NCBI GenBank assembly: GCA_041736175.1
Contig: JBGSUI010000069.1
Coordinates: 18,923-82,922 of the forward strand
DNA from: Oligoflexales bacterium
GTDB taxonomy: Bacteria > Bdellovibrionota_B > Oligoflexia > Oligoflexales > CAIYRB01
Direction: 5' to 3'
DNA length: 64,000 bases
Both the position numbers and the translations under genes were made by a program. The notes beneath the pieces are model-generated. The model was not told where the DNA came from, did no database searches, and saw nothing but the letters and a program-made list of their open reading frames with translations. How positions within the stretch are numbered: the stretch's first letter is position 1; each line of letters starts with the position of its first letter. Positions 4,359 to 63,834 of this stretch are shown here, piece after piece.

Positions 4359-4380
4359 TTTTATTGTTTACTAAGTAGGA

Positions 4381-12130: not shown

Positions 12131-12579
12131 AGAGCGGACTGCTGTGATCAAGACTTGTTCTTGGGGCCTTTTGAATCGTCTAGCCCGACTTCAGTGGGCC
12201 GCGAAAAAATGACCGGTGCTTGCAACTTTGATAACTGCACATAAATACCGTCCATTATATTACGATAAAAGTTGAGAAAAAATCCTGGGAGGTTGCCTTT
12301 GGGGGGTTAAGCCTCTGAGCATGAGGCCGATGGGCTTTACAGATAGGGGTGGTTATGGGGGTGAGGGGGCGCCATACGCGCACAAAAGGTTTGGCGTCAA
12401 GCCAGAGAAGAAAAGAGCAAACTCCCAAGATGTTTCTAAATCTAGGTTAATGAGATTGGCTGGCCGGTTAAAATCATTTCTTAGCAAAATAAATTTTTCA
12501 TAAAAATCTTTGGGTTATCGATTGTTGACCGAGGCACTCTGGTCTTGAGAAATAGATTTTGAATAAAAACCTAGTTATT

Positions 12580-49631: not shown

Positions 49632-50513
49632 TTATGGTCCACTGTTTTTGTGGAGGAACCAATCCCGCCGGATCGCTTCATCCATGTCTAGGGGGCTGCC
49701 TTCAATCTCCATATCGCGGAGTTGCTGGTAAATTCGTTCTTCATAGAGTTTGGCCGCCTTTGTCGAAAGGTTGCCGTAGTATTGGTTTAAGCGAGATTGC
49801 ACTTCTGAGGCTGGTATAATCTCAGATATGCGGGCTTTTTCTCGGGGTGTGAGCGGTTTGACCTGGGGTGGCGCTGGAGCTTTTAAGGGGGGCTGAATTT
49901 GAGCTGGTTTTGGTGCTGGAGAGGGAGGATTTTGGTTGGACCGCTTTTCGTCCCATTCTTCGTTGATCTCGTCCCCGTTGTCCTCATGGCCTTTGCCTTG
50001 GGGGGCTTTCCCCCCCTTTTTTGGGCTCTTGGCAATCGATGTCAGCTCAAAAAAGATTTCGGTATCGCTGACCTTCCATATACAGTCGTTATACCAGTCA
50101 ATTCCTCCTCCAATCGCCAGTCCTAACCATCCCCCCCAAAGGATGTTGCCTAAGGTCCAAAGATTTAGGGTTGAGCTATGCTGGTAGGTGAGAGGTTTAT
50201 ACCCCGGTTTGGATACACTCATGCTGAAATCTTTGTTTTTGTCGATAGCGAGATTGCATGGAGTGGTGCATGGTCCATAGCCTTCTACCTCGGCGAATGC
50301 ACCGGATGGCTCCGAAGTGATCTCGATGGTCTCAGGATCTTGAAAATTCTTGACGATGCTTGCGCAGCTTAAGTTTAGCGCCACCATGACTAAGGCAGCC
50401 CACAGCCTAAAAAAGCCTAATAACCACCCGCCGCATGGCAGCCCGCTGGAGAGTCTTATCGGTTGGCGGCGGGTTTTTCTCGTCCCATTCCCGCGGTGGT
50501 TTATGATCTGCAT
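49632..50513 (-). CDS. PEGA-domain lipoprotein with Gly-rich hydrophobic hairpin and Pro-rich linker (true start probably near 50400)
   Basis: Lipobox NLSC, ITSEPSGA..EV.G....TTP...SKPGY PEGA pattern, GNILWGGWLGLAIGGGID; directly downstream of motB. Confidence 0.75.
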   Translation of the reverse strand: MQIINHRGNGTRKTRRQPIRLSSGLPCGGWLLGFFRLWAALVMVALNLSCASIVKNFQDPETIEITSEPSGAFAEVEGYGPCTTPCNLAIDKNKDFSMSVSKPGYKPLTYQHSSTLNLWTLGNILWGGWLGLAIGGGIDWYNDCIWKVSDTEIFFELTSIAKSPKKGGKAPQGKGHEDNGDEINEEWDEKRSNQNPPSPAPKPAQIQPPLKAPAPPQVKPLTPREKARISEIIPASEVQSRLNQYYGNLSTKAAKLYEERIYQQLRDMEIEGSPLDMDEAIRRDWFLHKNSGP

Positions 50514-51045
50514 AGGCCTCTACCCTTAATTTTTGAGGATTGATTCCAGCAAGCTCAAGACGCTCTCTGATAGCCATGGCCCTCGCACTGGAGAGTTCCC
50601 AGTTGCTTTTGAAGATTCCATTATTAATGGGGGTCTCGTCGGTATGTCCTTCGATGGCGATCCGGTACTTTTCGCTAAACGGTTTAAGAGACTGCATCAC
50701 CTTGGCAAGGGGCTCCTCCATCTCCCCTTTCACCACGGCCTGGCCAGAGTCAAAAGTGACTCCGGAGTGAAAGGAGATCTCAAGGCCATCAGTGGTGAGT
50801 TGTACCTGGACGGACTGGGTGAGCTTTTGTTCTTCAAGGGCTTTTTTGACCTCAACTGAAGCAGCTTTAAGGCTTGTGGCGCTAGGTTTTTTTTGGCCTA
50901 AAGCTTCTGCGATTTGCTCCATCTTTACCGTGCGCATATCCGAGGCCGATAAGATCAAGACAAAATAAATCAATAGATTTGTGATCAGATCGGCGTAGGA
51001 AGTCAGCCATCCTTCGTTTGAGGACCTAAGACGCCGCAAGGTCAT
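50407..51045 (-). CDS. motB: MotB-family stator subunit (TM with conserved Asp, plug, OmpA-like peptidoglycan-binding domain)
   Basis: WLTSYADLIT, FDSG.A, IEGHTD, SNWELSSARA, RRVVI. Confidence 0.9.
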   Translation of the reverse strand: MTLRRLRSSNEGWLTSYADLITNLLIYFVLILSASDMRTVKMEQIAEALGQKKPSATSLKAASVEVKKALEEQKLTQSVQVQLTTDGLEISFHSGVTFDSGQAVVKGEMEEPLAKVMQSLKPFSEKYRIAIEGHTDETPINNGIFKSNWELSSARAMAIRERLELAGINPQKLRVEAYADHKPPREWDEKNPPPTDKTLQRAAMRRVVIRLF

Positions 51046-51824
51046 GGATGATCCCCGATTGATTTAGGCTGTCGGTTTTCTGAAACGAGGGCGGTGATCG
51101 TGGTTTCGATAAGGTCCAGCTGTGTCAATCGGTCGTTGAGTTGGTTGTTGATCCGAGAGGCCATGGGGCCACCTAAAGCCGCACCTGTGGCGATCCCATA
51201 GAGGGTCGCCAAAAGCGCCATCGCCATGGATCCGCCGAGATTGCTGGGATCGTCTCCCATATTTTTAAAGAGTTGAACCATTCCCGTGACGGTTCCGACC
51301 ATGCCAAAGGATGGTGCAAGTTTGCCCACCATCTCCCATGCCTCGACGACCGGGCCAAATTCTTGTAGATAGCGGGTGCGTTGCTGCATAAACCGTTCGC
51401 TCAGGGAGTCTCCCGACTGCTGTAGGAGGAGCACATCGGCAGCGAGGCGGATTTCAGGAGTTTTACCCTGGTCCACCAACCCGAGGATCACGCTGCGGCG
51501 CCCCTCCCGCCAGGCCGAACGAATCTCTTGCAGCCCCTGTCTGGTCTCTTCGATGGTTTTAGAAAAGGGCCGGGCCGCGGGGAAGACTTCCCAAAAAGAC
51601 CGCATCATGGCCAAGAGTGCGTTGCGATCATTTGCGACCAGTAACGCTCCTAGAACACCACCAAAAACCACAATCGCCGCATGGGGATCAAAAAAACCAA
51701 TCTTAACCCCAGATCGTTCCATCAGGGCAGTGTAGGTTACGCCAGCGAGGATCAAGATACCAAGTAAAGGAGTGAGCACGGATGGTCTCCAGGCGTCTTG
51801 TGGATAAGAGTTCAATGAACCCAT
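51042..51824 (-). CDS. motA: MotA-family stator subunit
   Basis: IVVFGG..GA, APSFGMVGTV.GMVQ, LGGSMAMALLATLYG, GPMA; ATGA overlap with motB. Confidence 0.88.
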   Translation of the reverse strand: MGSLNSYPQDAWRPSVLTPLLGILILAGVTYTALMERSGVKIGFFDPHAAIVVFGGVLGALLVANDRNALLAMMRSFWEVFPAARPFSKTIEETRQGLQEIRSAWREGRRSVILGLVDQGKTPEIRLAADVLLLQQSGDSLSERFMQQRTRYLQEFGPVVEAWEMVGKLAPSFGMVGTVTGMVQLFKNMGDDPSNLGGSMAMALLATLYGIATGAALGGPMASRINNQLNDRLTQLDLIETTITALVSENRQPKSIGDHP

Positions 51825-51946
51825 TTTAGTCTACCAGGATCAATCTTCGAAAACCTAAGTTTTTTTATTAACAAACTAAAAATGATTCTGTAAACTGGGG
51901 CTTAACAAACACGCTTTGCACCGCGACCTTTGCGAGCTAGAAACCC

Positions 51947-52720
51947 ATGAGGTTCCCCTACCAAAAATTGAGCCTCTTGCCAATCCTCACAACACTGGGT
52001 TGTGTAGAGTTTGTGACACCTGCGGGGGGATGGCTAGAGCCGGTGGACTTGCAACTCAATCAGGAATCCCTTAAGGGGCAAACCATCGGCCTCGAATGTG
52101 GATGGGAAGAATTTCAATTTTTTAATAGGCTAGAAAAGTGGGAGCCCTATCGACCCCAAGAATCGCAAAAAGGCAATGCAAGGGGCGAAAGAGTCCTCTC
52201 CCCAAAAAAAGTGGGGGGCCTCGAATCTGATAACCAATATACTGAAATGAATGAATCAGGTCTGAGCACTCTATCTTGTTTTAGGATGGCTCAGGTCATC
52301 AGATCCTTGGGAGCCAACCTTTGGGATCCTGACTCGCAGACTGATCCTGACTTTAAGGTAAGGTACCTAAATATGGACCCTGAGCGGGACTACTGCGGCT
52401 GGACGGCTGTTCCCTATGTTTTAAGCTTCACCTTATTTCCCTGTTTAGAATACCTTAAATCACAAGCAGTTATCACTTTTCTTGGAGACCATGGGAAATA
52501 TGAAAAGAAATTGACATTAGCGGCTGACATCACGGCTGTCTATGGAGTCTGGGTGTTTTACTTTATAGGTGTCGATCTCTTTCGTCCAGCCGCAAACCAG
52601 CGCGGCTTTAGGAAGCAAAGGCTGGGACGAGATACCATTCAAACAATCCAAAACCACCTCTATAGCTTTCAGATGCAGCTCGCCAAAAAATCTTTGGCAC
52701 AGTCTGGAGACCAAAGATGA
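51947..52720 (+). CDS. Lipoprotein with hydrophobic hairpins; first gene of the 11-gene operon
   Basis: Lipobox TLGC; hydrophobic segments AVPYVLSFTLFPC and VYGVWVFYFIGV. Confidence 0.75.
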   Translation: MRFPYQKLSLLPILTTLGCVEFVTPAGGWLEPVDLQLNQESLKGQTIGLECGWEEFQFFNRLEKWEPYRPQESQKGNARGERVLSPKKVGGLESDNQYTEMNESGLSTLSCFRMAQVIRSLGANLWDPDSQTDPDFKVRYLNMDPERDYCGWTAVPYVLSFTLFPCLEYLKSQAVITFLGDHGKYEKKLTLAADITAVYGVWVFYFIGVDLFRPAANQRGFRKQRLGRDTIQTIQNHLYSFQMQLAKKSLAQSGDQR

Positions 52721-53304
52721 CACCCCTGTTTATGGTTGCTTCTCTGGTCGTGGTCTCTCTGTCGTTGCCAGTGCAGTTTTTACTGTCGCCCCAGTGGGCT
52801 TTTGAACTGGGATTGGTCTCCGCTGAACCACCCCTTTGCCGCCCTGAAACCCCCTTTGAAACGGCAAGTAGGTACCGTGAAGGCAGTGGAAAGGCGTGGC
52901 GGTTTTCCCGCCGCGAAGCTATGATTTGTCCCCGAAATCTCTTTGGGCGGCGGGACCGCAATACTTACTACAACTTTGTGTTTGATCGAAGTTCCCAGGT
53001 CCTCGAAGCCATGGGGCGGCGTGCCATAAAGATCATTGATGAAACCCCTCGGGGTCGCGGTCTGTCCTGGAGCATAAGCCTTAACGAAGACGTTCCCCGT
53101 GAAATGCGCCAAACCTTGCTGGCAACCTTACAGACAAACCTAGTCCAGGCCCTCGGTCCCGGAAGGGTTCTTAGACAGCGATCTTCAGTCAAACCCCATG
53201 TGCTTTTGTCCGTAGGGACCCAAGCTGTGATTGACCCACAGTTGTTGTTTTATGGTGAGGTCCGTTTGATAGACGAGGCAAAGGTGCAGTCTTGGAAAAT
53301 CTAA
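52717..53304 (+). CDS. Membrane-anchored/secreted hypothetical protein
   Basis: N-terminal hydrophobic segment; ATGA overlap with the previous gene. Confidence 0.7.
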   Translation: MTPLFMVASLVVVSLSLPVQFLLSPQWAFELGLVSAEPPLCRPETPFETASRYREGSGKAWRFSRREAMICPRNLFGRRDRNTYYNFVFDRSSQVLEAMGRRAIKIIDETPRGRGLSWSISLNEDVPREMRQTLLATLQTNLVQALGPGRVLRQRSSVKPHVLLSVGTQAVIDPQLLFYGEVRLIDEAKVQSWKI

Positions 53305-54464
53305 CTTTAGCCAAAATCATAGGGTTTCTTGCCATCCTCCTGGGGATGCCCAGCGGTGTCGCGATTGGTGCAGGAAATCAAGAGGTGATCCTTGCGGATA
53401 TCCGACTAATGGGTGCCGATTTAGTCGATGAAATGGTCTACCAGTGGCAGGAGGCTCCCCCGCTTGGAGGTTTGGGAAACCCGGCTCCCCTGGTACTGGT
53501 GGGGGTCCAAGCACCCCTGGGGCTTGACGTCCGCTTTAAAGAGCTGGTCGAAAATCGACTTTTTGAACTCCTTAGGCAAAACCCCAAAATTCAGGTAAAC
53601 CTAGCCTACTGTGGTCCCTGCCGCCAATGGGTGGCTAAGTCCAATCCTACGGGGACGGTTTTAGCATGGGCTATTGACCAACCCGAGGTGCTCCAGGATC
53701 TCATGGCGGCGACGCCCGAACGCTATGGTTTGGTGTTGAATTTTGAGAGTGAAGCCCATGACCTCGTGCTGCGCGCTCAGATTTTTACCTTAGGGGGGAA
53801 TCAAAAGATCCTTTGGGCTAAGACCATCGCCACAGCAAGCACAGCCCGTAGAGTGCTGCGGGACGAAACTCCGCTGATCAGTTTGAGTGCCGCCAAAAAA
53901 CAACAGGATGATATCCTGAATCGCCATGATCCTCTTGAGGTCACAAGCCGGATCGCCGTGCGGATCTTTCGCCCAGGCAGCGATGCGTCCCAGACGGCCC
54001 TTCCTCTGCCCTTTTTAGAGCAAAGTTTTGAGGTGGTCCCACTCCCCCAAAGAAACCTTCGGTCGGCCATTACCTTTGGGTTTACCAGCATTCAAGAATC
54101 CTTAAGTGGCTGGAGTGTGGGAGGGCACCTAGCCGGTTTGATCCTCCGAGACCGACCATCCCTTGTGAATCCAGACCTCTATTGGCTCTTCGGAGCCCAT
54201 TATATACGCCTCAGGGGGCCTGGGGCAGCGGCCTTTGGCGCAAAACAATTGGATATTGATACCATCAGAAATATCCAACGGGAACCCAAAGCAACTCTGG
54301 TTTCCTGGCGCCTGGGGATCGAGGCTCACATAAAACATCGCCTCGGTTTCTTGTTGTTCTTAGAAGATCTCCCTATTCTAAAGAAAAACGAAGCTTTTGA
54401 CCAAGATTATTTTCTTGGAATTCCCTATTTGGCTTATGGATTTGGGGTTCTTATCAAATGGTAG
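53292..54464 (+). CDS. Secreted protein: CxxC/CsgG-like N-domain plus C-terminal OM beta-barrel
   Basis: Signal peptide, YCGPCRQW, LVLRAQIF...ILWAK, amphipathic strands ending YGFGVLIKW. Confidence 0.72.
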   Translation: MENLTLAKIIGFLAILLGMPSGVAIGAGNQEVILADIRLMGADLVDEMVYQWQEAPPLGGLGNPAPLVLVGVQAPLGLDVRFKELVENRLFELLRQNPKIQVNLAYCGPCRQWVAKSNPTGTVLAWAIDQPEVLQDLMAATPERYGLVLNFESEAHDLVLRAQIFTLGGNQKILWAKTIATASTARRVLRDETPLISLSAAKKQQDDILNRHDPLEVTSRIAVRIFRPGSDASQTALPLPFLEQSFEVVPLPQRNLRSAITFGFTSIQESLSGWSVGGHLAGLILRDRPSLVNPDLYWLFGAHYIRLRGPGAAAFGAKQLDIDTIRNIQREPKATLVSWRLGIEAHIKHRLGFLLFLEDLPILKKNEAFDQDYFLGIPYLAYGFGVLIKW

Positions 54465-55417
54465 GCAAATATCTACAGCTCCTTTTACTCTTCGCTTTAT
54501 TCTTTTGGAGTGGGCAGGCTGCCGCTCTCTTTGTCCAAACAGGCCGTGATTTTGAGCAGCTTCGCGATATCCTTAACGAGCAACTCAGCAACGATCAAGA
54601 TCTCAAAGCTCGAGTCGTGCCAACACTTTTAGCAACTCCGATCCACCACTGGTCCCAGTCTAGTGGTGATTTTGCAGCCCAAGCGACAACTCTCCTCAAA
54701 ACAGTGCTCAATGGGGCCAACGACGTCATCTTGTGTCAGGACTGCAATGCATGGCGTCTTAACGTTGTCACCGGCCAGAGACTACAGATTAACAACGGCG
54801 ACTGGTCCCTCTCAGAGATAAGTCGGGCTAAGGAGAATCTTAAGTTTCAGCAGGCAAAGTCCTTGACTATGATTCGAGAAACCCCCAGTGGGATTGAGCT
54901 GAGGGTTGTAGAGTTAGCCGATGGCCGGGTTTTGCTTAGCGCATTAGCGGATGGAAACAGCGACCTAGATACACAGAAACCGTGGCTTGGGTTTTCTAAG
55001 GAGCGAGACCGACGGCTCAGAGAAGAGGCTCTTGCCTACTCTTTTATCAACCTAGGGCTTTATCCCAATCCTCTCTTGCAGCTGGAGTTTGTGGAGCAGT
55101 GGGGAAGCCTTAACCAGCATATTACGGGGATAGGATTCTCCCTAATCAACCCTGACCTTGCCCTTGGGGTCGTCTATCATTATTTGTTTCGAAACTTTAA
55201 GAATCTCCACGTATCCGGAAGTCTTTTGATGCCGCTGAGTGAGGTCTTGACCCAGGGTGATCAGGCGAATGAGGGAACGAATGGCTTTGTCTTTCAGGTG
55301 ATGGGGCAGTATGCTTTCTCTAAGACCTATGCCCTGGGTCTCTCTCTCTCAAGTGAAGGAAAAGTGAGTCTTGGGTTGGTGTTTCACAATCCTCTCTTTT
55401 TCCCATTTATCCTGTAA
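54458..55417 (+). CDS. Secreted protein, paralogous architecture: CxxC/CsgG-like N-domain plus C-terminal beta-barrel
   Basis: Signal peptide ending AAA, LCQDCNAW, IELRVVELADGRVL, beta strands FQVMGQYAF/LGLSL/LGLVF. Confidence 0.72.
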   Translation: MVGKYLQLLLLFALFFWSGQAAALFVQTGRDFEQLRDILNEQLSNDQDLKARVVPTLLATPIHHWSQSSGDFAAQATTLLKTVLNGANDVILCQDCNAWRLNVVTGQRLQINNGDWSLSEISRAKENLKFQQAKSLTMIRETPSGIELRVVELADGRVLLSALADGNSDLDTQKPWLGFSKERDRRLREEALAYSFINLGLYPNPLLQLEFVEQWGSLNQHITGIGFSLINPDLALGVVYHYLFRNFKNLHVSGSLLMPLSEVLTQGDQANEGTNGFVFQVMGQYAFSKTYALGLSLSSEGKVSLGLVFHNPLFFPFIL

Positions 55418-55423
55418 GGAGTC

Positions 55424-56071
55424 TTGCAATTGCGAAGATCCTATGATCTCACTGGCATCCTAATAGCTCTCGTCCTGTCGAGTTTCCAAGTGGGATGCAA
55501 TGCGTCCAAAGAGTTTTGGCAGTATGTTGTCCAAGACGAAATCGCTAAACCGATCCCCCCGCGCGAGGAGGGTGAGGAGGATGCACCTCGGCTGTTGTCA
55601 CCCCATAATGTCCGAGTCGTTTATAACGACGGCTCGACTTCGACCGAAGTCGTGATTCCAGTGTTATCATCAGGCCAACAAATTGTTATTGACCATAAAA
55701 GTCGATCGAAGCCTAGCTCTCTGTCGGTCCTACCGATCCCCCCTGCTCCTGCTGACCAATCCCTGGAGCAGTCCTATGTGGAAGGCGGTCTGCCAATCCA
55801 ACAAAAGAGTACACCCGTCAGTATCGTCAAGACTCACGAGAAAATCCGCGAGCTTGTCAAGGAAGGCAACTACGCTGTGGCGCTGGAGTATGCGGACCAG
55901 CTCTTGAAGCGGTATCCTAAACACGTCAAGACCCTACGGACCAAAGGATCTCTACTCCTCCAAATGGGCGAATTAGACGCAGCTCTTAAGACATACCGAG
56001 ATGCCCAAGATGTTGAGCCCGATAAAAAGGTCGAAGAGTTGATCCAAAATCTTGAAAAACGATCTCGGTAA
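55424..56071 (+). CDS. TPR-repeat lipoprotein
   Basis: Lipobox QVGC; GNYAVALEYA..LL..YP and KGSLLLQMGELDAALKTY..A...EP TPR units. Confidence 0.82.
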   Translation: MQLRRSYDLTGILIALVLSSFQVGCNASKEFWQYVVQDEIAKPIPPREEGEEDAPRLLSPHNVRVVYNDGSTSTEVVIPVLSSGQQIVIDHKSRSKPSSLSVLPIPPAPADQSLEQSYVEGGLPIQQKSTPVSIVKTHEKIRELVKEGNYAVALEYADQLLKRYPKHVKTLRTKGSLLLQMGELDAALKTYRDAQDVEPDKKVEELIQNLEKRSR

Positions 56072-56089
56072 TTCCAAAGGAGCCACGCC

Positions 56090-57796: not shown

Positions 57797-57798
57797 CC

Positions 57799-58581
57799 AT
57801 GCTGTATCAAGATCGAAGTGTCCGGCAGATTGGCAGGGATTGGATTTTTTTTTGCGCGGCTATCCTGGGCTCACCCGGATGTTACGAAGGCTGGGAGGAT
57901 CCCTCTGCCCAGGGACCTGGCCAAGGACCCATCGATGGTACCCAAACTCCCCCCGGCGTGAACACCCCTAAACGATACTCCTATAGTCTGCTGACGACCA
58001 TTCGCTTGGCACCAGCAGCTATGGCCAGCACCAAGTGTTTTCCGTCCCAAGACCTCAAGGAGTTTAGAACGACGGAATGGCAAGACCGGGCCTTGTCCCT
58101 TGGGACTGTATTAGGTGAATTAAGTGAAAAGGTCGTCACTAGGGAGGTGAGTGTTCCCGTTAACGACTGCACCGCTTTGGGGTCCGTACTGAACGAGGCC
58201 CTTAAAGAAGCTCCCTGGCTGCCGGAGTCCGCACCGGCCAGTGACTCCCTCGGACGACTGATGGTGCATGTAAAGGCTGTCTTGTGGGAGGGAGAGCCAG
58301 CGTCGGCGCCTTCACCTAATGTCGCCAAAGAGGACTGGATTGCGGTAAGCACGCTTAAAGCAAAGGGTATTAAAAGCAAAAGTCTGAGCTACTTTGTGAT
58401 AGCAAACGGAGGCAGCGGGCATTTTACCCAGTGGCAACGGGCGATGCCAAAAACCACTTGGGCGAGCGGCAATCCCATCAATCAGGTCGACCCGACTGAC
58501 CAAGGGGCTGTGAATCGCAGAAATGTGGTGGGCAAAGATCAAGCAGCATTTAAACAGTGGCTCCTGGAGACTGCGCAGTGA
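57799..58581 (+). CDS. Hypothetical lipoprotein
   Basis: AAGGA SD, lipobox-like SPGC, Pro/Gly linker. Confidence 0.7.
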   Translation: MLYQDRSVRQIGRDWIFFCAAILGSPGCYEGWEDPSAQGPGQGPIDGTQTPPGVNTPKRYSYSLLTTIRLAPAAMASTKCFPSQDLKEFRTTEWQDRALSLGTVLGELSEKVVTREVSVPVNDCTALGSVLNEALKEAPWLPESAPASDSLGRLMVHVKAVLWEGEPASAPSPNVAKEDWIAVSTLKAKGIKSKSLSYFVIANGGSGHFTQWQRAMPKTTWASGNPINQVDPTDQGAVNRRNVVGKDQAAFKQWLLETAQ

Positions 58582-60662
58582 CGTCTGTGGCAAAAATCAT
58601 TTGTTTATACTTTCTTTATGTGAGTGCCGCATGCCAAAAAATCCCGCTTACCGGAGAATTTGGGGTCCTGGATTTAGCCATCGCCCATTGGTTTGAAAAC
58701 GAAGGTGTGGCCTATGTGTTTTACTCCCTGTCAGAGAGAGAAGCACGACTCTTAAACCCGGTCTTTAGCCTATCTCTTAAAATGAAGTCCCAGGTTTCTG
58801 GTGGTGAAGAGACTTTGCAACTCGTCCTTGATGGGAGCCAGGCGGTCCACGAGCATCGCCTTATAAAGTGTGGGCCAGATAAGCTTTGTGGTAGCTATTC
58901 GGTGAGGAGTTCAAAACCGCTCAGCAGCGGCACCCTTAAATTTCAATATGACCCCATGAGCGAGCTTGGGCTTTTAAAAGATCTTTCCGTGCAAAACCAC
59001 TTTGCTAGCGACCGCTCCGAGAGTTTCAGCACCCAGCTGTTTGGCGTTTTTGACCAAACCAACGAACATCTCCAAGTGCGCGCCGTCCCTAACTTTGGCG
59101 TCCCTGGAAGCGAGGCGGTGCCCCTCTATGGGATGGAGCGGAAATACCGGATTTTTGGCGCACAACTGGAAAATATCAGCCTCAGTGATTATATCGCCGC
59201 TAAAACCACCACGGGGTCACCCCTGGCTTTTCCTGCCTCTTATTGTAAAGTCGGTGCCCGCGGTCCAACAGTTCCGGAGTTTATTTTGGAAAAGTCCTCG
59301 GCTTGGTCGCAGCAATCTTTCACACCGACCAATCCCGCTACGGGAGCTTGCTTTACGGTGGAGTACCTAGGAAAAGATGGGGAGCCACTCCTTAAACAGG
59401 CGGTTGCTGCCGCAGGCTTACGCAATCCCTTGGTTCGGGATGCCACAAGCTTTAGTCTGACCAATCCGCTACGGGAGACCCTCCAGATACCCCTGGTCAT
59501 CAAAATCTGCGACGACGATCCAGCTCGGGGATCGATGGTGGACGAGGATTTTTTCAAGTACCAACGGTATGTATTAGGTTACCCGGATTTTCCCCAAGAT
59601 GTGTGTTTTCGTATCGGGCGGAGTGAAGAGTTTAGGGAACAATTGGAAAACGTTTTAAGCTCTAAACTTTCAAGCCTTAAAAGCCAGCCCAATCCCGATA
59701 ACCGAGACTATATGTTTGTTGTGGTTCTTCACGACAAGTTTACTCTCGAATTTAGCGATATCCAATCTAAAATCGCAGAGTCTCTAAGTAAAATATCAGC
59801 TCTAGAAGCTGATTTTGTTTCGCCAAGGTTGATCGGTGGGATCGTCTATGCGTCCACAGTGAATTTTGTACCCACCGTTGACCAACAAAAATATCTTGTT
59901 TGGTGTCCACAAAATCTTCTTGACCAGGTGCTGACCGGTCCAACTGCGGCGTTAGGTAAGCAAAATTGTACGATTTCTCCCTTGCTGAGCCTTGATTTGC
60001 GGATTATTAATTTTGTAGCCCCCTTGGGACCGTTGCCTTCGCTAGACTACTACACCGAGTATGTTAAGAGATATGGAGACTCTGGATTGGCACGAAGCCC
60101 ACAGCTCAAGATGTACAGCGTCCCCCAAACCAATCTAACAATCGTCGAAGAAGAACGTCGGATCACCTATTTTGATAGCCAGCGATATGTCATTGGCCAG
60201 GGAGAAAAAGCGCGGGTCTGCAGAAACCGCCTGGTTCCTGGTATTACAGATATGGTCATAAAACCCTTTGACCAAGACCTTTCCATTGAGGGGATCAGTC
60301 TCTTTAATATCAATGCCCTTTGGTTGTCTGAAACAGGAGCAGGGGAGTACCGGATTGGGATCAGTTGGCGCTATGGATTTTGGGGTGGAATTTCCTATAA
60401 GGGTGCGCTTAATGGTAAAGTTGTCAGCGTGATACCATACACAAGGTCGTTTAGTGCCTACGAGGAGCTAGGGGACTCTAAATGGTCTACGGAGACGATT
60501 CCTCTCGGCCAAGCGATCCAGCACTGTGCTGCCTATTGTGGCCATCCCTTTTTTGATGAATGGGGACAATACCAAGTAGGAGCTGCGTGGGATGATGTCC
60601 TGCGCTCTGACTGCACAACGCCCAAAATTTCTCGGTGGAACGATAATGAGGTGGGAACTTGA
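58578..60662 (+). CDS. Large Cys-rich lipoprotein
   Basis: GTG start in a GTGA overlap with GGAGA SD; lipobox SAAC; many Cys (CGPDKLC, CAAYC). Confidence 0.75.
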   Translation: MTSVAKIICLYFLYVSAACQKIPLTGEFGVLDLAIAHWFENEGVAYVFYSLSEREARLLNPVFSLSLKMKSQVSGGEETLQLVLDGSQAVHEHRLIKCGPDKLCGSYSVRSSKPLSSGTLKFQYDPMSELGLLKDLSVQNHFASDRSESFSTQLFGVFDQTNEHLQVRAVPNFGVPGSEAVPLYGMERKYRIFGAQLENISLSDYIAAKTTTGSPLAFPASYCKVGARGPTVPEFILEKSSAWSQQSFTPTNPATGACFTVEYLGKDGEPLLKQAVAAAGLRNPLVRDATSFSLTNPLRETLQIPLVIKICDDDPARGSMVDEDFFKYQRYVLGYPDFPQDVCFRIGRSEEFREQLENVLSSKLSSLKSQPNPDNRDYMFVVVLHDKFTLEFSDIQSKIAESLSKISALEADFVSPRLIGGIVYASTVNFVPTVDQQKYLVWCPQNLLDQVLTGPTAALGKQNCTISPLLSLDLRIINFVAPLGPLPSLDYYTEYVKRYGDSGLARSPQLKMYSVPQTNLTIVEEERRITYFDSQRYVIGQGEKARVCRNRLVPGITDMVIKPFDQDLSIEGISLFNINALWLSETGAGEYRIGISWRYGFWGGISYKGALNGKVVSVIPYTRSFSAYEELGDSKWSTETIPLGQAIQHCAAYCGHPFFDEWGQYQVGAAWDDVLRSDCTTPKISRWNDNEVGT

Positions 60663-61423
60663 TCGACCGCATATCCATTCAGCGAGTTATCGTGCTGGTG
60701 TTGTTTTTAGGAGATGCCTTCGCATGGGCCCAAAAAAATGATTCTCAAGGTGATGCGAATTCGGATCCCGAGATTGAAGAAAACAGTAGTGAAATCCTCA
60801 GCGCCATGTCTCTTGCCAGAGAGGTGGTCCAAGCCTCCCAGTCACTCCATGCCTTTGACTGGCGCAAGATGGCCACCGAACTTTCTTTTGGTTATGGCTA
60901 CGCGGATGAGGCTAACAATTTTGATACCGAATCTTTCAATCTAGGGCTTGGGATTCCGACGGGCGATGGATATCTGATCCAGGGAGGGCTGCGGCGTACC
61001 TTAGTCTATAGCACTCCTTCTACCAACCAACTTGGGGCTACTCCCTACCTTCAGGAGGCCCTTACATCCCGCTACGAGCTTTATGGGGGACTCGCCGCCA
61101 GTCTCGTAGAAGGCAGGGCGATGTCGCGGCTTAGCCCGTGGCTTCCGGATCTAGAGTTTGTTTTGTTTGGAGTCGGTCGCCTGCATTATTCTCGCTCGAC
61201 CCAGGACTGGCAGCCTTGGAGTTCGCGAAAACCTCCATCAAAGCTCGGGCAAAAGCCGATCACATCGAACTTGGGTGCCGAGCTAGGATTTCGCACTCAG
61301 GTTTATTTACCGATCCATATTGGTCTCTATTTTGAATGGCTTTATATTAGGCCCAGGTCAGGGGGGCAGGATCTCAAGTCATGGCGGTATTTTGAGGGAG
61401 GATTGGCTTGGGAGATTCCCTAA
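60659..61423 (+). CDS. Predicted small outer-membrane beta-barrel protein
   Basis: Signal peptide ending AWA; amphipathic strands (ELSFGYG, FNLGLG, ELGFRTQVY, IGLYFEW, FEGGLAW). Confidence 0.72.
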   Translation: MIDRISIQRVIVLVLFLGDAFAWAQKNDSQGDANSDPEIEENSSEILSAMSLAREVVQASQSLHAFDWRKMATELSFGYGYADEANNFDTESFNLGLGIPTGDGYLIQGGLRRTLVYSTPSTNQLGATPYLQEALTSRYELYGGLAASLVEGRAMSRLSPWLPDLEFVLFGVGRLHYSRSTQDWQPWSSRKPPSKLGQKPITSNLGAELGFRTQVYLPIHIGLYFEWLYIRPRSGGQDLKSWRYFEGGLAWEIP

Positions 61424-63339
61424 ACAACAGACACAAGTCGCTCAAGGGTTGGCTTTGGGGAATTTTGCTTCTGATTCAGCCGGCCCTAGGGGCTACTCCC
61501 TCGGGATTCGATGTGAGGCTTGAACAAGGGCGTCACGCCTTGACGACAGCAAAGAATTCAAAAGACCTCAAGGCAGCCGAAGATGTCTATGGGGGAATCC
61601 CTTGGTCGGACCCGCTGTTTAAGACAAAAATTCAAGATTTGATCCAGTGGCGCCTTCGCCTTAACCATGGCACGGAAGCCTGGAAACTCCATCTAGTAGC
61701 AGAGCGTCTAGGATACCAGTGGTCGGACCTGGACTACTCCAAGGTGCTTGCGGCGATGATGGTGGGAGTCTGTACCCTTAATGTTCCGGTTGAGATTCCC
61801 TATTTTCGGTTTTTGGCGCGGGCCCATATCTACCGTTTTGGGGTTCGCTTTTCCAAAAGTCGCCAACTGGTAAACCCCTATGAGATTGCCGCAAGGGGGC
61901 GCAGGCTTTCCTATCTGAATTGGAACCAACTCCCCTATCTTGTGGCCATTGCCCAGCTGGGCGGCTACCAAGAGACTCAGCTCCTGCGGGGAATGGGATG
62001 TGCCTCGGACGAAGATGAGCTACGGGACCCCAGAGAACGCCAGCACCTGGAGTTTGTCCAACTCAAAAATTGGTGGGCCTTAAAAAAGCAGAACCTCCAG
62101 CCAGATCTTTACGGTGAGACGGCGGTGCGTCTGCGACTCCTCTGGTTGGCTATGAATACATCACCAAAAAACTCTGTTCCTCAATCAAGTCCGCCCCTTT
62201 CGGATGGTGACGAGAAATTGGTCATAGAACTTTTAGACTCCTTTGAGTTTCGCCCTAAAGGTCCACAGCTTCCACAAAAAGAGGTATGGCAAGGTTTAGA
62301 CCCTGAAGAACAGCGTTATCTTTGGGGCCAGTTTATATCATCTAAACGGGTCCCCTCCCCTCCCTATAAGTTTAACTCCTCGGAAGCAAGCCACCTAGCC
62401 CTGCTCGCTCGATCTGCGCTGACCTCAAAAGATGCCGCGACCTGGTATGCCCTGCTTGATGTGCGGGCGTTCCCATTGGCACAGCACCAAGAGATTCTCG
62501 ACCAAGTCTTACAAAAAAAATCAGATTCTGAGTCCTCACTGGGATGCCTCCTCTATAACCGAGCCCAGATCGCCTATACTCGAGGCCAAACAACCTTGGC
62601 TTTAACCATGATCAGGCGACTCCTTTTGGGCGGGGAGTCGGATGGAGACCGGGAGGTGGAGACCCAGGCCGAGCACCTTGCTACTGAGTTGATCACAGAG
62701 TATCAATACGATCCGGCGATTTTAGGAGCTATCCAAACGCTGTTACCTCCCTCCCTGTGGACTCAGATCTTCCAAAAAATTGCCATCGACCACGGGCTCC
62801 GTGGCCAAAAGCGGGAGTTTGATCGGATCGTTTCTCTGGGTCCCAAAAAGTCTGGAGGGCCTCATCTAAGCTTTAACCCTCAGGGTTTAGAGCTGCTCAG
62901 GCACATGGCAGAACGAAATATAAATCAGTTTAATCGGATCTGGGCCCAGTTTGTCCAAGCCCAACCCCAGCAAGCTCTCACCCTTGTCGAGCGCATGGCC
63001 GAACGGAGCTTAGGGCTTAAGCCCCAAGAAAAACCGGGGGTCTCCCCCTATTTTAAAGTTGTTCTCGACACTATAAGCTCCCTTCCCCAAAGGGGGCGAA
63101 CCCAGGAGGTTTTAGGTGAGTTGCGCAAGATTTGGAGCTTTGCTCTGACTGCCAACCGCTTCCAGGAGGGTGTGGCGACAGTCCATGGGGGCGTCGTCCA
63201 AGCGGGAGTGGTGGACCTCAATAAGGGGGTTTCCCTCCTCCCTTGCGATCAGGCTTGGAAGCCTCCCCAGTCCCTAAGTCCTAAACAGCTCCTAGCGATC
63301 CCGCGCCGCATTGGCTCTACCGAATGGGAGGTGCGATAA
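61408..63339 (+). CDS. Secreted alpha-helical (TPR-like) protein
   Basis: Signal peptide ending ALG; LYNRAQIAY.RGQ...AL..IRRLL TPR-like unit. Confidence 0.72.
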   Translation: MGDSLNNRHKSLKGWLWGILLLIQPALGATPSGFDVRLEQGRHALTTAKNSKDLKAAEDVYGGIPWSDPLFKTKIQDLIQWRLRLNHGTEAWKLHLVAERLGYQWSDLDYSKVLAAMMVGVCTLNVPVEIPYFRFLARAHIYRFGVRFSKSRQLVNPYEIAARGRRLSYLNWNQLPYLVAIAQLGGYQETQLLRGMGCASDEDELRDPRERQHLEFVQLKNWWALKKQNLQPDLYGETAVRLRLLWLAMNTSPKNSVPQSSPPLSDGDEKLVIELLDSFEFRPKGPQLPQKEVWQGLDPEEQRYLWGQFISSKRVPSPPYKFNSSEASHLALLARSALTSKDAATWYALLDVRAFPLAQHQEILDQVLQKKSDSESSLGCLLYNRAQIAYTRGQTTLALTMIRRLLLGGESDGDREVETQAEHLATELITEYQYDPAILGAIQTLLPPSLWTQIFQKIAIDHGLRGQKREFDRIVSLGPKKSGGPHLSFNPQGLELLRHMAERNINQFNRIWAQFVQAQPQQALTLVERMAERSLGLKPQEKPGVSPYFKVVLDTISSLPQRGRTQEVLGELRKIWSFALTANRFQEGVATVHGGVVQAGVVDLNKGVSLLPCDQAWKPPQSLSPKQLLAIPRRIGSTEWEVR

Positions 63340-63342
63340 CCT

Positions 63343-63834
63343 TTGTTGTGGTCTCTTCCAACCCATCCCTTGACTAAGGTATTAGCTCTTGGAGTGGCTC
63401 TATGGAGCCAACCAATAGGCTGGGAAGAAATCCCTGCTGGTTCTCCTCCAGAGGTCGAAAAAACTATTCAGCCAAAAGCTGCGACTAAAGTCCTCAAAGA
63501 GACTCCGGGGAGCCCCCGTCTCCGTTTGCCAACAGACCGAGGTTTACAGGTAGACTCCGAACGGTTTTTACGATCCTTTCGCCGCCAAGCCGCGGTGGAC
63601 TTAACGCCCTGCCTGGCCAAGGAAGAAAAAAATCAGGGTGGAGGTGACCGCAGTCTCGGTCTTTCGGCAGTGCTCGATGCAAAAGGGCATATCAAAGTGA
63701 TCAAGGTTATCGATCCCCACAAAAACATATCAGACTGTGCCCGCGAGGCTCTTTTTAAGATGGATTTTTCCCCTTTGACCACGCACCTCCCCCAGGGAGC
63801 GACCGTTACTGTTCAATGGCGCCTAGATTGGTAG
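63343..63834 (+). CDS. Membrane-anchored protein with TonB-C-like (AgmX/PglI C-terminal-type) domain
   Basis: Short hydrophobic anchor, Pro-rich linker, L.PC.....L.L.AVLD.KG.I..I.V.....ISDC...L.KMDF......V.V.WRL.W. Confidence 0.6.
   Translation: MLWSLPTHPLTKVLALGVALWSQPIGWEEIPAGSPPEVEKTIQPKAATKVLKETPGSPRLRLPTDRGLQVDSERFLRSFRRQAAVDLTPCLAKEEKNQGGGDRSLGLSAVLDAKGHIKVIKVIDPHKNISDCAREALFKMDFSPLTTHLPQGATVTVQWRLDW

What the first reader, a model, noticed from the sequence alone, without database searches (positions are those of the whole stretch)
49632..63834. Candidate non-flagellar rotary trans-envelope machine: orphan MotAB stator divergent from an 11-gene operon with a FliG-like rotor, OM barrels, TPR and TonB-C-like proteins
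Seen: motA-motB-PEGA lipoprotein on the minus strand and, 122 bp away, 11 plus-strand genes that overlap or lie at most 18 bp apart. Every one has a signal peptide, lipobox or membrane anchor. No flagellar export, hook, rod, filament, chemotaxis or Zorya effector genes appear anywhere in the window. Known: 5:2 ion motors drive the flagellum (MotAB acting on FliG), Ton/Tol, Myxococcus Agl-Glt gliding (TolQR-type motor with TonB-C, TPR and OM barrel partners), T9SS (GldLM) and Zorya. Inference: this locus combines a flagellar-type stator and a FliG-like ring with a Glt-like parts list. That combination suggests a dedicated inner-to-outer-membrane motor (surface motility, prey contact/invasion, or energised secretion/import) that matches none of those systems as I know them.
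Basis: partly seen in the sequence, partly recalled or inferred. Interest (0 to 1): 0.93.

Follow-up and report, generated by a model that had tools for sequence, protein, structure and literature searches.

The report
MotAB-driven envelope machine with membrane-anchored FliG
A conserved, unannotated gene cluster in Oligoflexia bacteria joins a flagellar-type ion motor (MotA/MotB) to a membrane-anchored relative of the flagellar rotor protein FliG and about ten unknown envelope proteins, which looks like a non-flagellar machine that sends power from the inner membrane to the cell surface.

Summary
motA-motB-PEGA lie on the minus strand, and 122 bp away are 11 packed plus-strand genes, all predicted to be exported or membrane-bound.

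The link is not chance. In 25 of 25 evaluable related loci, MotAB (in one, MotB alone at the contig end) sits with the cluster: divergent from it in 11 loci and inside it, between the TPR lipoprotein and the FliG-like gene, in 14. Cluster-type MotA occurs in 30 of 131 class genomes, the same 30 that carry the FliG-like protein.

The 568-aa protein has a signal peptide, a periplasmic domain with four invariant cysteines, one TM helix, and a cytoplasmic domain homologous to FliG middle and C-terminal domains (family profile vs PDB 1lkv, E=4.9e-20).

MotA is MotA-type, not TolQ/ExbB-type. MotB keeps the plug, the TM Asp and the OmpA domain. Nine plus-strand proteins match nothing in Pfam, NCBIfam or, for the six searched, PDB. 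The flagellum is encoded elsewhere.

"TonB-C-like" is not supported. The best reading is a new PMF-driven trans-envelope machine of unknown output.

The parts
49632..50513 (-). PEGA-domain lipoprotein, found in Type I loci only. The first ATG overlaps motB by 107 nt, so the true start may lie downstream.
   Evidence: Pfam PEGA E=8.3e-07, 29.3 bits against a cut-off of 20.8. A conserved Cys follows the hydrophobic leader in orthologues. The gene follows MotB in 7 Type I loci: L017, L018, L022, L023, L041, L042 and L067.
50407..51045 (-). MotB-like stator B subunit: TM helix with the conserved Asp, plug, and OmpA-type peptidoglycan-binding domain.
   Evidence: Pfam MotB_plug 3.9e-11 and OmpA 1.4e-15, both above their cut-offs. 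NCBIfam best hit is MotD at 5.5e-35, below every curated cut-off. The [SA]YAD[LM] motif is present in 23 of 23 cluster MotBs.
51042..51824 (-). MotA-like stator A subunit with four TM segments and a cytoplasmic insert of about 100 aa.
   Evidence: Pfam MotA_ExbB 3.3e-18; MotA_N 27.2 bits against 27.3. NCBIfam flagellar MotA/PomA models score about 1e-20 against TolQ at 0.005, all below cut-offs. The tree splits it 100/100 from the genome's TolQ/ExbB-like paralogues. Basic residue, adjacent acidic residue and the TM3/TM4 prolines are conserved.
51825..51946 (.). Divergent 122-bp intergenic region between motA and g1.
   Evidence: One sigma-70-like match lies at 51868-51896 (+), but the scan as a whole is not above chance (7 found against 9.4 +/- 2.6 expected). 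No motif conserved across 9 Type I intergenic regions was visible by eye.
51947..52720 (+). g1, a probable lipoprotein of unknown family.
   Evidence: No significant Pfam or NCBIfam hit. A Cys follows the leader in orthologues. Present in Type I loci and, weakly detected, in Type II loci.
52717..53304 (+). g2, an exported protein of unknown family.
   Evidence: No Pfam or NCBIfam hit. The Type II equivalent matches by hhalign at 95.2%, E=2.5e-08.
53292..54464 (+). g3, an exported protein: N-terminal CxxC domain plus a C-terminal half with beta-type periodicity that ends in an aromatic residue. A probable OM protein and core gene.
   Evidence: No Pfam, NCBIfam or PDB hit. 23 database relatives, none named. 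Its N-domain is distantly similar to that of g4 (hhalign 65.7%, E=5.8e-05). Periodicity heuristic. Present in every locus that reaches its position.
54458..55417 (+). g4, a paralogue-like partner of g3 with a CxxC motif. A probable OM protein and core gene.
   Evidence: No Pfam, NCBIfam or PDB hit. hhalign to g3. Present in both locus types.
55424..56071 (+). g5, a TPR lipoprotein. In Type II loci it lies immediately upstream of motA.
   Evidence: Pfam TPR_16 9.2e-08 and TPR_19 2.7e-07. Conserved lipobox Cys. A TPR gene holds the same position in the paralogous C260 module.
56090..57796 (+). g6, a bitopic inner-membrane protein: signal peptide, periplasmic domain of about 150 aa with 4 invariant Cys, a TM helix at about 181-205, and a cytoplasmic domain whose last 230 aa or so are homologous to FliG middle and C-terminal domains.
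   Evidence: A1 profile against PDB 1lkv, 8.8e-07. A6 profile (69 sequences): 1lkv 4.9e-20, 3hjl 6.3e-18, 8umd_B 1e-14, MgtE N-domain 1.1e-05. Invariant C62, C67, C72 and C109 in 21 sequences. TM helix and the positively charged stretch after it.
57799..58581 (+). g7, a lipoprotein with a conserved Cys-Tyr-Glu/Asp-Gly-Trp start. Found in Type I loci only.
   Evidence: No Pfam or NCBIfam hit..
58557..60662 (+). g8, a 701-aa cysteine-rich lipoprotein and core gene.
   Evidence: No Pfam, NCBIfam or PDB hit. 15 database hits including itself, all 'hypothetical' or unnamed, none with a Pfam domain. 13 invariant Cys in 9 sequences.
60659..61423 (+). g9, a small exported protein with beta-type periodicity and an aromatic C-terminus. 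A probable OM barrel and core gene.
   Evidence: No Pfam, NCBIfam or PDB hit. Alignment.
61408..63339 (+). g10, a 643-aa exported protein that is probably helical.
   Evidence: No Pfam, NCBIfam or PDB hit. The Type II equivalent matches by hhalign at 100%, E=5.4e-39. Alpha-type periodicity in its C-terminal half.
63343..63834 (+). g11, a small exported protein with 2 invariant Cys and a conserved Trp-x-x-x-Trp C-terminus.
   Evidence: No Pfam hit in the window copy or in 6 orthologues. No NCBIfam hit. PDB profile search gave nothing with E below 0.2. Alignment.

Best explanation
The locus encodes one dedicated multi-protein machine of the cell envelope. It is separate from the flagellum and runs on the ion-motive force.

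Its engine is a flagellar-type stator: MotA with four TM helices and a large cytoplasmic domain, and MotB with a plug, a channel Asp and an OmpA-type anchor to peptidoglycan.

The stator does not push on a soluble FliG ring mounted on FliF. Its cytoplasmic face is proposed to engage the FliG-like cytoplasmic domain of g6, a single-pass inner-membrane protein whose other end is a disulfide-rich periplasmic domain. Ion flow through MotAB would move g6. If g6 polymerises as FliG does, the movement would be rotation of a ring or chain; otherwise g6 would be pushed as a lever.

g6 would pass that movement across the inner membrane to the periplasmic and outer-membrane partners. These are the TPR lipoprotein g5, the probable OM pair g3/g4, the probable barrel g9, the Cys-rich lipoprotein g8, and g1, g2, g10 and g11.

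Shown: the gene linkage, the phyletic co-occurrence, the homologies of MotA, MotB and g6, the topology signals, and a separately encoded flagellum.

Inferred: MotA-g6 contact, movement, ring formation, OM location of g3/g4/g9, and the output. My guess for the output is movement or exposure of a surface component (gliding- or adhesion-like) rather than import, but this is weakly founded.
For: Linkage. MotAB lies with the cluster in 25 of 25 evaluable loci out of 29 fetched; in one (L047) only MotB is on the contig, at its end. The other 4 sit on contigs that end too early. Two gene orders exist. In Type I (11 loci) motA-motB(-PEGA) diverges from g1-g11. In Type II (14 loci) the order is g1-g2-g3-g4-g5-motA-motB-g6-g8-g9-g10. 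Linkage has therefore survived a rearrangement.

Phyletic pattern. Cluster-type MotA (E<=1e-30) is present once each in 30 of 131 genomes of the class. Full-length g6 is in 29 of them, and in the 30th (G101) its start sits at the contig end. Neither was found in the other 101.

g6 is FliG-like. Family profile against PDB: 1lkv E=4.9e-20, full-length FliG 3hjl 6.3e-18, Salmonella C-ring FliG 8umd_B 1e-14. hhalign to an own-genome protein with Pfam FliG_M and FliG_C gives 98.4%, E=7.7e-15.

Topology. g6 has a leader, 4 invariant Cys in the N-domain, one TM helix, and a Lys/Arg-rich stretch after it.

Stator. MotB_plug and OmpA are above their Pfam cut-offs, and the channel Asp motif is present in 23 of 23. 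MotA groups with MotA-type paralogues and away from TolQ/ExbB-type ones at 100/100 support. These sequence features match those that PMC12505986 lists as specific to flagellar stators (section read).

Second module. A second, more distant module in the same genome (C260) reads TPR, MotA, MotB, a 645-aa bitopic protein with Pfam FliG_C at 24.5 bits (cut-off 23.3), then an OMP-like gene. This shows that the TPR-MotA-MotB-anchored-FliG core recurs.

Separate flagellum. FliF, rod genes and another MotAB lie on C123; FlhA, flagellins and MCPs lie elsewhere.
Against: There is no structural or experimental evidence.

The charged positions of the FliG torque helix are not conserved across the two locus types. 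The Arg column is kept in Type I only, and the EHPQR and GGxG motifs are absent.

The acidic residue of MotA lies one position off the column of the canonical one.

The g6 periplasmic domain shows no similarity to FliF or to the N-domains of the other anchored FliG-like proteins, so nothing supports ring building.

All 30 system-positive genomes also have FliF, so a flagellar link is not excluded.

Nine of the 11 plus-strand proteins give no hint of activity.
Confidence: 0.6

Rival explanations
1. It is a flagellum-associated accessory module. On this reading the cluster supplies an extra stator set together with periplasmic and OM scaffold proteins (in the manner of TPR-rich MotC, MotK, PflA or collar proteins), and g6 docks, parks or regulates these stators at the flagellar motor.
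For: All 30 system-positive genomes have FliF, against a background of 114 of 131. The stator has the sequence features of flagellar stators. TPR proteins that work with stators are described in passages of PMC13023049.
Against: None of the 29 fetched loci showed a hit to flagellar genes beside the cluster, as far as my cluster HMMs and the coordinates of the FliF and FliG hits tell. Only 30 of 114 FliF-positive genomes carry it. The own genome has another MotAB on the FliF contig. A FliG domain tethered to the membrane by a TM helix about 130 residues upstream, with no match to FliG_N (the profile match to full-length FliG starts at residue 93-105), has no obvious place in a C-ring. A dedicated set of 12 conserved genes is large for a regulator.
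Confidence: 0.15
2. It is a Ton/Tol-like transducer with no rotor. A MotAB unit acts on single g6 molecules, as ExbBD acts on TonB or TolQR on TolA, but from the cytoplasmic side. This would energise an outer-membrane task such as uptake, envelope integrity or lipoprotein exposure, with no ring and no sustained rotation of the partner.
For: In Type II loci g6 follows motA-motB directly, in the position tonB or tolA takes after exbBD or tolQR (gene order; the comparison is from general knowledge). A TPR protein and lipoproteins accompany it, as CpoB and Pal accompany Tol. Nothing supports ring building by the g6 N-domain.
Against: MotB has the full OmpA anchor and plug of high-torque stators, not the compact TolR/ExbD type. 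FliG middle and C-terminal domains are known to self-associate in chains (recalled, not tested). No TonB_C, TolA, TolB or Pal signature was found in any cluster protein.
Confidence: 0.18
3. It is a Zorya-like or other anti-phage defence system built on a MotAB-like channel.
For: MotB gives weak hits to ZorB models (best 1.5e-17).
Against: There is no ZorA hit for MotA, and no ZorC, ZorD or ZorE or any other PADLOC hit in the 10 proteins scanned. NCBIfam flagellar MotB/MotD models score far better (5.5e-35). No nuclease, helicase or other cytoplasmic effector is present; every partner is exported.
Confidence: 0.02
4. The genes are unrelated neighbours, with an orphan flagellar stator lying by chance beside an envelope operon.
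For: In the window alone, the two units are divergently transcribed and could be independent.
Against: 25 of 25 evaluable loci keep the link. In 14 of them motAB is inside the operon. The phyletic match is 30 of 30 against 0 of 101.
Confidence: 0.01

Closest known systems
Bacterial flagellar motor (MotA5B2 stator acting on FliG of the C-ring)
   Same: The stator subunits are of the same type: a 4-TM MotA with a large cytoplasmic insert, and a MotB with plug, channel Asp and OmpA domain. The proposed partner carries domains homologous to FliG_M and FliG_C.
   Different: The locus has no FliF, FliM/N, export apparatus, rod, hook or filament; these are encoded elsewhere. The FliG-like domain is fused through a TM helix to a periplasmic domain rather than being soluble and bound to FliF. 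There is no match to FliG_N and no EHPQR or GGxG motif. MotA and MotB score below every NCBIfam flagellar cut-off. Ten accompanying envelope proteins have no flagellar counterpart.
Myxococcus/Bdellovibrio Agl-Glt gliding machinery
   Same: The parts list is similar in style: an ion-driven motor in the inner membrane, bitopic IM proteins, TPR proteins, lipoproteins, paired OM proteins and a Cys-rich OM lipoprotein. The description of Glt is general knowledge and was not tested here.
   Different: The Agl motor is TolQ/TolR-like; PMC12505986 places AglRS among the non-flagellar 'GIT' group. Here MotA is MotA-type and MotB has plug and OmpA. No sequence similarity to any named family was found for g1-g4 and g7-g11. 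The 2026 gliding review PMC13104615 does not contain the word FliG (term search only).
Tol-Pal and Ton systems (TolQRA, ExbBD-TonB)
   Same: In Type II loci the order is motor A gene, motor B gene, then a single-pass 'transducer' gene, with a TPR protein and lipoproteins nearby. The purpose of energising the outer membrane from the inner one would be shared.
   Different: The transducer has the opposite topology, with its large domain in the cytoplasm. It is FliG-like, not TonB- or TolA-like. The motor is MotAB-type. There are no TonB_C, TolB or Pal hits.
Type IX secretion/gliding motor GldKLMN
   Same: A compact operon in which a lipoprotein gene precedes the two motor genes and periplasmic or OM ring components follow. 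A fixed rotary motor is thought to drive an envelope track (passage in PMC13104615).
   Different: GldLM is not homologous to MotAB (same passage). GldM transmits force through its own periplasmic domain, with no FliG-like cytoplasmic partner. No Gld or Por family hit was found here.
Zorya (ZorAB plus effectors)
   Same: It is a MotAB-like channel used outside the flagellum.
   Different: No ZorA-type long tail or PADLOC ZorA hit, no ZorC/D/E, and no cytoplasmic effector.

Membership tests
Flagellar-type stator ('FIT' of PMC12505986): A subunit | Four-helix TM 'square fold' and an expanded cytoplasmic torque-generating interface of at least 4 helices | tested here: inconclusive
   Four hydrophobic segments and an insert of about 100 aa between TM2 and TM3 are seen in the sequence and alignment. 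Pfam MotA_N scores 27.2 against 27.3.
Flagellar-type stator ('FIT'): B subunit | Plug and linker next to the TM helix, and an OmpA-related peptidoglycan-binding domain | tested here: met
   Pfam MotB_plug 42.8 bits (cut-off 24) and OmpA 57.8 bits (cut-off 27.2). Features as listed in section 7 of PMC12505986.
Flagellar-type stator | Conserved channel Asp in the B-subunit TM helix and prolines in A-subunit TM3 and TM4 (residue roles recalled from the E. coli literature) | tested here: met
   The [SA]YAD[LM] motif is present in 23 of 23 cluster MotBs. The TM3 and TM4 Pro columns are invariant in 20 cluster MotAs (P171, P220) and aligned with the own-genome MotA paralogues.
Flagellar-type stator | Meets a curated equivalog model of a flagellar MotA/MotB/PomA/PomB | tested here: not met
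   All NCBIfam hits are far below their cut-offs: MotA best 73.3 bits against 237, MotB best 121.2 against 283.
Flagellar-type stator | Works on the flagellar rotor, shown by flagellar gene context or a flagellar phenotype | tested here: not met
   No hit to FliG_C, FHIPEP, YscJ_FliF, Flg_bb_rod or Flagellin_N falls on contig C16. In 25 loci the context is always the g-cluster. The phenotype cannot be tested here.
FliG | FliG middle and C-terminal (ARM-like) domains | tested here: met
   Profile A6 against PDB FliG chains: 1lkv 4.9e-20 over profile positions 345-563, 3hjl 6.3e-18, 8umd_B 1e-14. The window protein alone gives only MgtE_N at 0.0044 in Pfam.
FliG | FliG N-terminal domain that binds FliF | tested here: not met
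   Matches to full-length FliG start at chain residue 93-105 (3hjl, 8umd_B). The roughly 130 residues between the TM helix and the matched part hit nothing.
FliG | EHPQR and GGxG motifs of the middle domain (FliM binding and hinge; motif names recalled) | tested here: not met
   In the alignment with the two canonical own-genome FliGs, the cluster proteins lack both motifs.
FliG | Soluble cytoplasmic protein of about 330 aa | tested here: not met
   g6 is 568 aa with a leader, a periplasmic domain and a TM helix.
Agl-Glt gliding machinery | TolQ/TolR-type motor (AglRQS) | tested here: not met
   Cluster MotA separates 100/100 from the genome's TolQ/ExbB-like paralogues. NCBIfam TolQ scores 0.005 against MotA/PomA models at about 1e-20. 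The B subunit has plug and OmpA.
Agl-Glt gliding machinery | TonB-C-like domains in bitopic IM proteins (GltG/GltJ) | tested here: not met
   No TonB_C or related hit in any cluster protein. g11 was tested in the window copy plus 6 orthologues and by PDB profile, with no hit.
Agl-Glt gliding machinery | Sequence homology of the OM and periplasmic parts to GltA-K | not testable with these tools
   No Glt reference sequences or models were on hand. Indirectly, NCBIfam and Pfam gave nothing.
Zorya | ZorA with a long cytoplasmic tail, plus ZorC/D or other effectors | tested here: not met
   PADLOC gives no ZorA and no effector hit in the 10 proteins scanned, only weak ZorB hits for MotB.
Tol-Pal / Ton | TolA- or TonB-type transducer with a large periplasmic C-domain; TolB and Pal, or TonB-dependent receptors | tested here: not met
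   No such Pfam or NCBIfam hits. g6 has the reverse topology.

The most novel reading that the evidence does not exclude
This is an independent, minimal ion-driven rotary motor. A flagellar-type MotA5B2 stator turns a ring or chain of a single-pass 'FliG fused to a periplasmic domain' protein, with no FliF, FliM/N or export apparatus. The motor drives a so far unknown surface function (gliding, adhesin transport or secretion) through roughly ten novel envelope proteins. It would be the first non-flagellar use of the MotA-FliG torque interface. It would be either an offshoot of the flagellar motor or a relative of its pre-flagellar ancestor.
Probability: 0.3. Interest if true: 0.95.

Novelty: categorically new. 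Interest (0 to 1): 0.85.

Why it matters
All known uses of flagellar-type stators, and of FliG, are in the flagellum. A recent survey (PMC12505986; abstract and sections 6, 7 and 14 read) treats the plug, the OmpA anchor and the large cytoplasmic interface as flagellum-specific innovations.

A conserved 12-14-gene cluster that pairs such a stator with a membrane-anchored FliG homologue and no other flagellar part would change that picture in three ways:
- It would add a new member to the short list of machines driven by 5:2 motors (flagellum, Ton, Tol, Agl-Glt, T9SS, Zorya).
- It would show a second way to couple MotA to a load.
- It would offer a much simpler system for studying the MotA-FliG interface and for asking how the flagellar rotor arose.

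It also gives a first functional context to about ten 'dark' protein families. At least one cultured species (Pseudobacteriovorax antillogorgiicola) carries a g6-like protein, so the idea can be tested at the bench.

Tried and rejected
Structure prediction, complex prediction (g6 periplasmic domain, 4 copies), the ESM Atlas and the search of earlier findings were closed or held nothing. No fold-level test of FliG-likeness, OM barrels, ring formation or MotA-g6 contact could be made.

Ring-building idea. hhalign of the g6 periplasmic domain against an alignment of 14 FliF proteins, and against the N-domains of the C138 (784-aa) and C260 (645-aa) proteins, gave probabilities of 0.1-0.2%. This neither supports nor refutes the idea.

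TonB-C idea for g11. No Pfam TonB_C hit in the window copy or in 6 orthologues, none in NCBIfam, and no PDB profile hit below E=0.2.

PDB profile searches of g8, g3, g4, g10 and g9 gave nothing significant. Pfam on 10 Type II orthologues of g1, g3, g4, g8, g9 and g10 gave nothing.

Zorya was rejected.

C260 neighbours against the cluster families by hhalign: only the FliG-like protein (70.5%) and the TPR repeat region (75.7%) scored. The other 13 comparisons with C260 proteins were at or below 0.7%.

The genes of the ~800-aa FliG_M/C family are not next to any MotA_ExbB hit in the 5 genomes checked, so that family is not a third copy of the module.

Regulation. Promoter-like sites are not above chance (7 against 9.4 +/- 2.6), and no shared motif was visible by eye in 9 divergent intergenic regions.

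Expression. No RNA holder is listed.

Literature. Searches (listings and abstracts read) found no description of a MotAB plus anchored-FliG system or of this cluster. Supplements of papers were closed and were not seen. The supplementary trees of PMC12505986 might include members of this MotA clade.

Full report
WHAT IS THERE

The window is part of contig C16 of a 6.08-Mb, 264-contig genome that is 91.6% complete. Related records are titled Oligoflexales or proteobacterial MAGs.

On the minus strand lie three genes:
- a PEGA-domain gene (49632-50513);
- motB (50407-51045; Pfam MotB_plug and OmpA, both above cut-off);
- motA (51042-51824; MotA_ExbB above cut-off, MotA_N 27.2 bits against 27.3).

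After 122 bp come 11 plus-strand ORFs, called g1-g11 here (51947-63834). They overlap or lie at most 18 nt apart.

Only g5 (TPR) has a clear Pfam match. g6 (56090-57796) has a sub-threshold MgtE_N hit (E=0.0044). g1-g4 and g7-g11 match nothing significant in Pfam or NCBIfam.

A simple leader, lipobox and hydrophobicity scan of all families across orthologues gives this picture:
- g1, g5, g7, g8 and PEGA have a conserved Cys after the leader, so they are probably lipoproteins.
- g2, g3, g4, g9, g10 and g11 have leaders only.
- g6 has a leader plus one internal TM helix.

IS THE LINK BETWEEN motAB AND THE OPERON REAL?

Yes. I fetched 29 loci with a g6 homologue, the window included, from genomes of the same class. 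I mapped them with tblastn and with HMMs built from the orthologues.

Four loci sit on contigs that end before the place where motAB would be (L008, L014, L021, L036). In the other 25, MotAB is part of the locus; in L047 only MotB is present, at the contig end.

Two arrangements occur:
- Type I (11 loci: window, L017-L020, L022, L023, L041-L043, L067) has motA-motB, usually followed by PEGA, diverging from g1-g11. L041 has g1 and g2 moved to the motA strand.
- Type II (14 loci: L024, L037-L040, L044-L051, L066) has motA-motB inside the operon, between the TPR gene g5 and g6.

Type II loci also keep equivalents of g2 (hhalign 95.2%) and g10 (100%). A small ORF sits in the place of g11 but matches it only weakly (27.5%). 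Type II loci lack g7 and PEGA.

A further genome, G115, has MotA about 0.7 kb from g6 on the same strand, judging by the coordinates.

The phyletic pattern agrees:
- A profile of the cluster's MotA finds one copy at E<=1e-30 in 30 of 131 genomes of the class.
- Full-length g6 is found in 29 of these.
- In the 30th, G101, the start of g6 lies at the contig end.
- Neither protein was found at these thresholds in the other 101 genomes.

The carriers are spread over at least nine GTDB-style families of the tool's numbering. Kin are not independent, so I make no statistical claim. Even so, linkage that survives a rearrangement, together with a one-to-one phyletic match, is strong evidence of one functional unit.

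The conserved core is g1-g6, g8-g10, MotA and MotB.

THE STATOR

MotA has four hydrophobic segments and an insert of about 100 residues between the second and third.

In a maximum-likelihood tree of 27 sequences, the 20 cluster MotAs group with the three other MotA-type paralogues of the genome (C123, C42, C260). They are split at 100/100 support from its four TolQ/ExbB-like paralogues. The long branches make the finer order unsafe.

NCBIfam flagellar MotA/PomA models score about 1e-20 against 0.005 for TolQ. Every hit is far below the curated cut-offs, so this is a divergent clade.

In the alignment with the genome's other MotAs:
- The basic residue in the column of the canonical charged pair is kept as R/K.
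- An acidic residue follows one position after the canonical acidic column.
- The TM3 and TM4 proline columns are invariant (P171, P220).

Which E. coli residues these correspond to is recalled, not tested.

MotB keeps the channel Asp motif in 23 of 23 sequences, as well as the plug and the OmpA domain.

PMC12505986 (abstract and sections 6, 7 and 14 read) lists the plug plus linker, the OmpA-related domain, the expanded cytoplasmic interface and the square TM fold as features of flagellar stators that are absent from non-flagellar relatives. It places AglRS, ExbBD and TolQR in the other group. By its sequence-level features this stator is therefore of the flagellar type, yet it sits in a non-flagellar context.

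THE FliG-LIKE PROTEIN

g6 orthologues share this layout:
- a leader;
- a domain of about 150 residues with four invariant cysteines (C62, C67, C72, C109 in 21 sequences);
- a TM helix (about 181-205), followed by a strongly basic stretch;
- a cytoplasmic domain of about 360 residues.

A nine-sequence profile hits T. maritima FliG (1lkv) at E=8.8e-07.

A profile search of 1.84 billion representatives found 488 relatives at E<=1e-3 and 80 at E<=1e-30. A 69-sequence profile built from them hits FliG chains at the following E-values, always over the last ~230 residues:
- 1lkv, 4.9e-20;
- 3hjl, 6.3e-18;
- Salmonella C-ring FliG 8umd_B, 1e-14;
- the MgtE N-domain, 1.1e-05.

The match covers FliG_M and FliG_C but not FliG_N. 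The EHPQR and GGxG motifs of canonical FliG are absent. The Arg column of the torque helix is kept in Type I proteins only.

So g6 is a true FliG homologue, but not a FliG in architecture or motifs. Its topology puts the FliG-like part where MotA's cytoplasmic domain is.

THE REST OF THE CLUSTER

- g3 and g4 look like distant paralogues (hhalign 65.7%, E=5.8e-05 over their N-domains; both have a CxxC motif).
- The C-terminal halves of g3 and g9, and less clearly g4, show beta-type hydrophobic periodicity and end in aromatic residues. g10 and the g6 C-half show alpha-type periodicity. This fits OM barrels but is only a heuristic.
- g8 is a 701-aa lipoprotein with 13 invariant Cys.
- Database searches find 15 relatives of g8 (itself included) and 23 of g3, all unnamed or 'hypothetical' and without Pfam domains.
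- PDB profile searches of g3, g4, g8, g9, g10 and g11 found nothing significant.

RELATION TO THE FLAGELLUM

The genome encodes a flagellum elsewhere:
- FliF, two rod genes, an MCP and a MotAB pair on C123;
- FlhA on C125;
- two canonical FliGs on C232 and C130;
- nine flagellin hits and nine MCP hits in all.

None of these is on C16.

FliF is present in 114 of 131 genomes, and in all 30 carriers of the cluster. The cluster is therefore an accessory trait of about a quarter of the flagellated genomes. It has not yet been seen in a genome without a flagellum. The genomes without FliF are few and are concentrated in a few families, mostly with small genomes, so this says little either way. I keep a flagellum-associated role as a rival at 0.15.

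A SECOND MODULE

On contig C260 the same genome has, in order:
- a TPR gene;
- MotA;
- MotB;
- a 645-aa bitopic protein with Pfam FliG_C at 24.5 bits (cut-off 23.3);
- an OMP_b-brl-like gene.

This protein aligns with g6 over the whole cytoplasmic domain at hhalign 70.5%, E=3.9e-05. Its neighbours otherwise differ from the cluster's.

The core 'TPR protein, MotA, MotB, anchored FliG-like protein' thus occurs twice, in the same order as in Type II loci. This supports the idea that MotAB and the anchored FliG domain work together.

HOW IT MOST LIKELY WORKS

The following steps are inferred, not shown.
1. MotB anchors the stator to peptidoglycan.
2. Ion flow turns the MotA pentamer.
3. MotA's cytoplasmic domain engages the FliG-like domain of g6.
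4. g6, alone or as a FliG-like chain or ring, is moved.
5. The disulfide-rich periplasmic domain of g6 passes that movement to g5, g8, g2, g10 and g11, and to the probable OM proteins g3, g4 and g9.

There is no cytoplasmic ATPase or other cytoplasmic partner, so the ion-motive force would be the only energy source.

The output is unknown. I lean towards moving or exposing a surface component rather than import, by analogy with Agl-Glt and T9SS, but with low confidence.

My estimates:
- About 0.85 that the cluster is one dedicated machine that includes MotAB and g6.
- About 0.6 that MotA-g6 contact is the coupling step.
- About 0.3 that g6 forms a rotating ring.

COMPARISON WITH KNOWN SYSTEMS AND NOVELTY

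The cluster shares its engine and a rotor-domain homologue with the flagellum, but nothing else. It resembles Agl-Glt, Tol-Pal and GldKLMN in its style of parts list and in gene order, but it has a different motor type and no detectable homology. It is not Zorya.

Four literature searches found no description of it. A 2026 review of gliding motors does not contain the word FliG. All database relatives are 'hypothetical' or unnamed.

At the level of the system I rate it categorically new, with two caveats: the energy-coupling principle is borrowed from the flagellar motor, and all the evidence is comparative.

LIMITS

- No structure, complex or atlas tool was available.
- No RNA data were listed.
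- Supplements of papers could not be read.

Noticed in passing
Own genome, contig C260 = L032:8345-13076 (outside the window): A second, distant module in the same order as Type II loci: a TPR gene (8345-8986), MotA (8983-9852), MotB (9849-10538), a 645-aa bitopic protein with Pfam FliG_C at 24.5 bits against a 23.3 cut-off (10520-12457), and an OMP_b-brl-like gene (12444-13076). A giant ORF of more than 1900 aa lies nearby at 14159 onwards.
   Followed up: partly
Own genome, contig C138 = L034:687-3041, and one copy in most genomes of the class: A family of 750-1000-aa proteins with a long N-terminal exported region, one TM helix, and Pfam FliG_M plus FliG_C above cut-off. It is present in most of the 131 genomes and missing mainly from families without FliF. 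It is not next to any MotA_ExbB hit in the 5 genomes checked. In the own genome a cNMP-binding-like ORF follows it. It may be an undescribed flagellar or other motor component.
   Followed up: partly
window:53292-55417: g3 and g4 look like tandem paralogues. Their N-domains align (hhalign 65.7%, E=5.8e-05) and each has an invariant CxxC motif.
   Followed up: partly
window:16500-23800: A low-GC stretch (0.41-0.46 against about 0.50 elsewhere). It holds an AAA_14/STAND-like ATPase (17934-19322) and several ORFs without Pfam hits (16545-17849, 19381-21024, 21043-22230). It may be a mobile or defence island.
   Followed up: no
Own genome, contigs C232 and C130: There are two canonical FliG genes of 333 and 339 aa (143.5 and 101.5 bits to FliG_C) in a genome with a single FliF and a single FlhA.
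   Followed up: no
Genomes G075, G023, G025, G024, G035: Each has 8-11 MotA_ExbB-family genes. That is a large number of 5:2-motor paralogues for genomes of 3-8 Mb.
   Followed up: no
L035 (C16 just beyond the window): 855-1799(-), 2118-3401(+), 3591-4385(+): The three ORFs downstream of g11 have no Pfam hit. I did not examine whether they belong to the cluster. They were not among the families conserved next to Type II loci.
   Followed up: no
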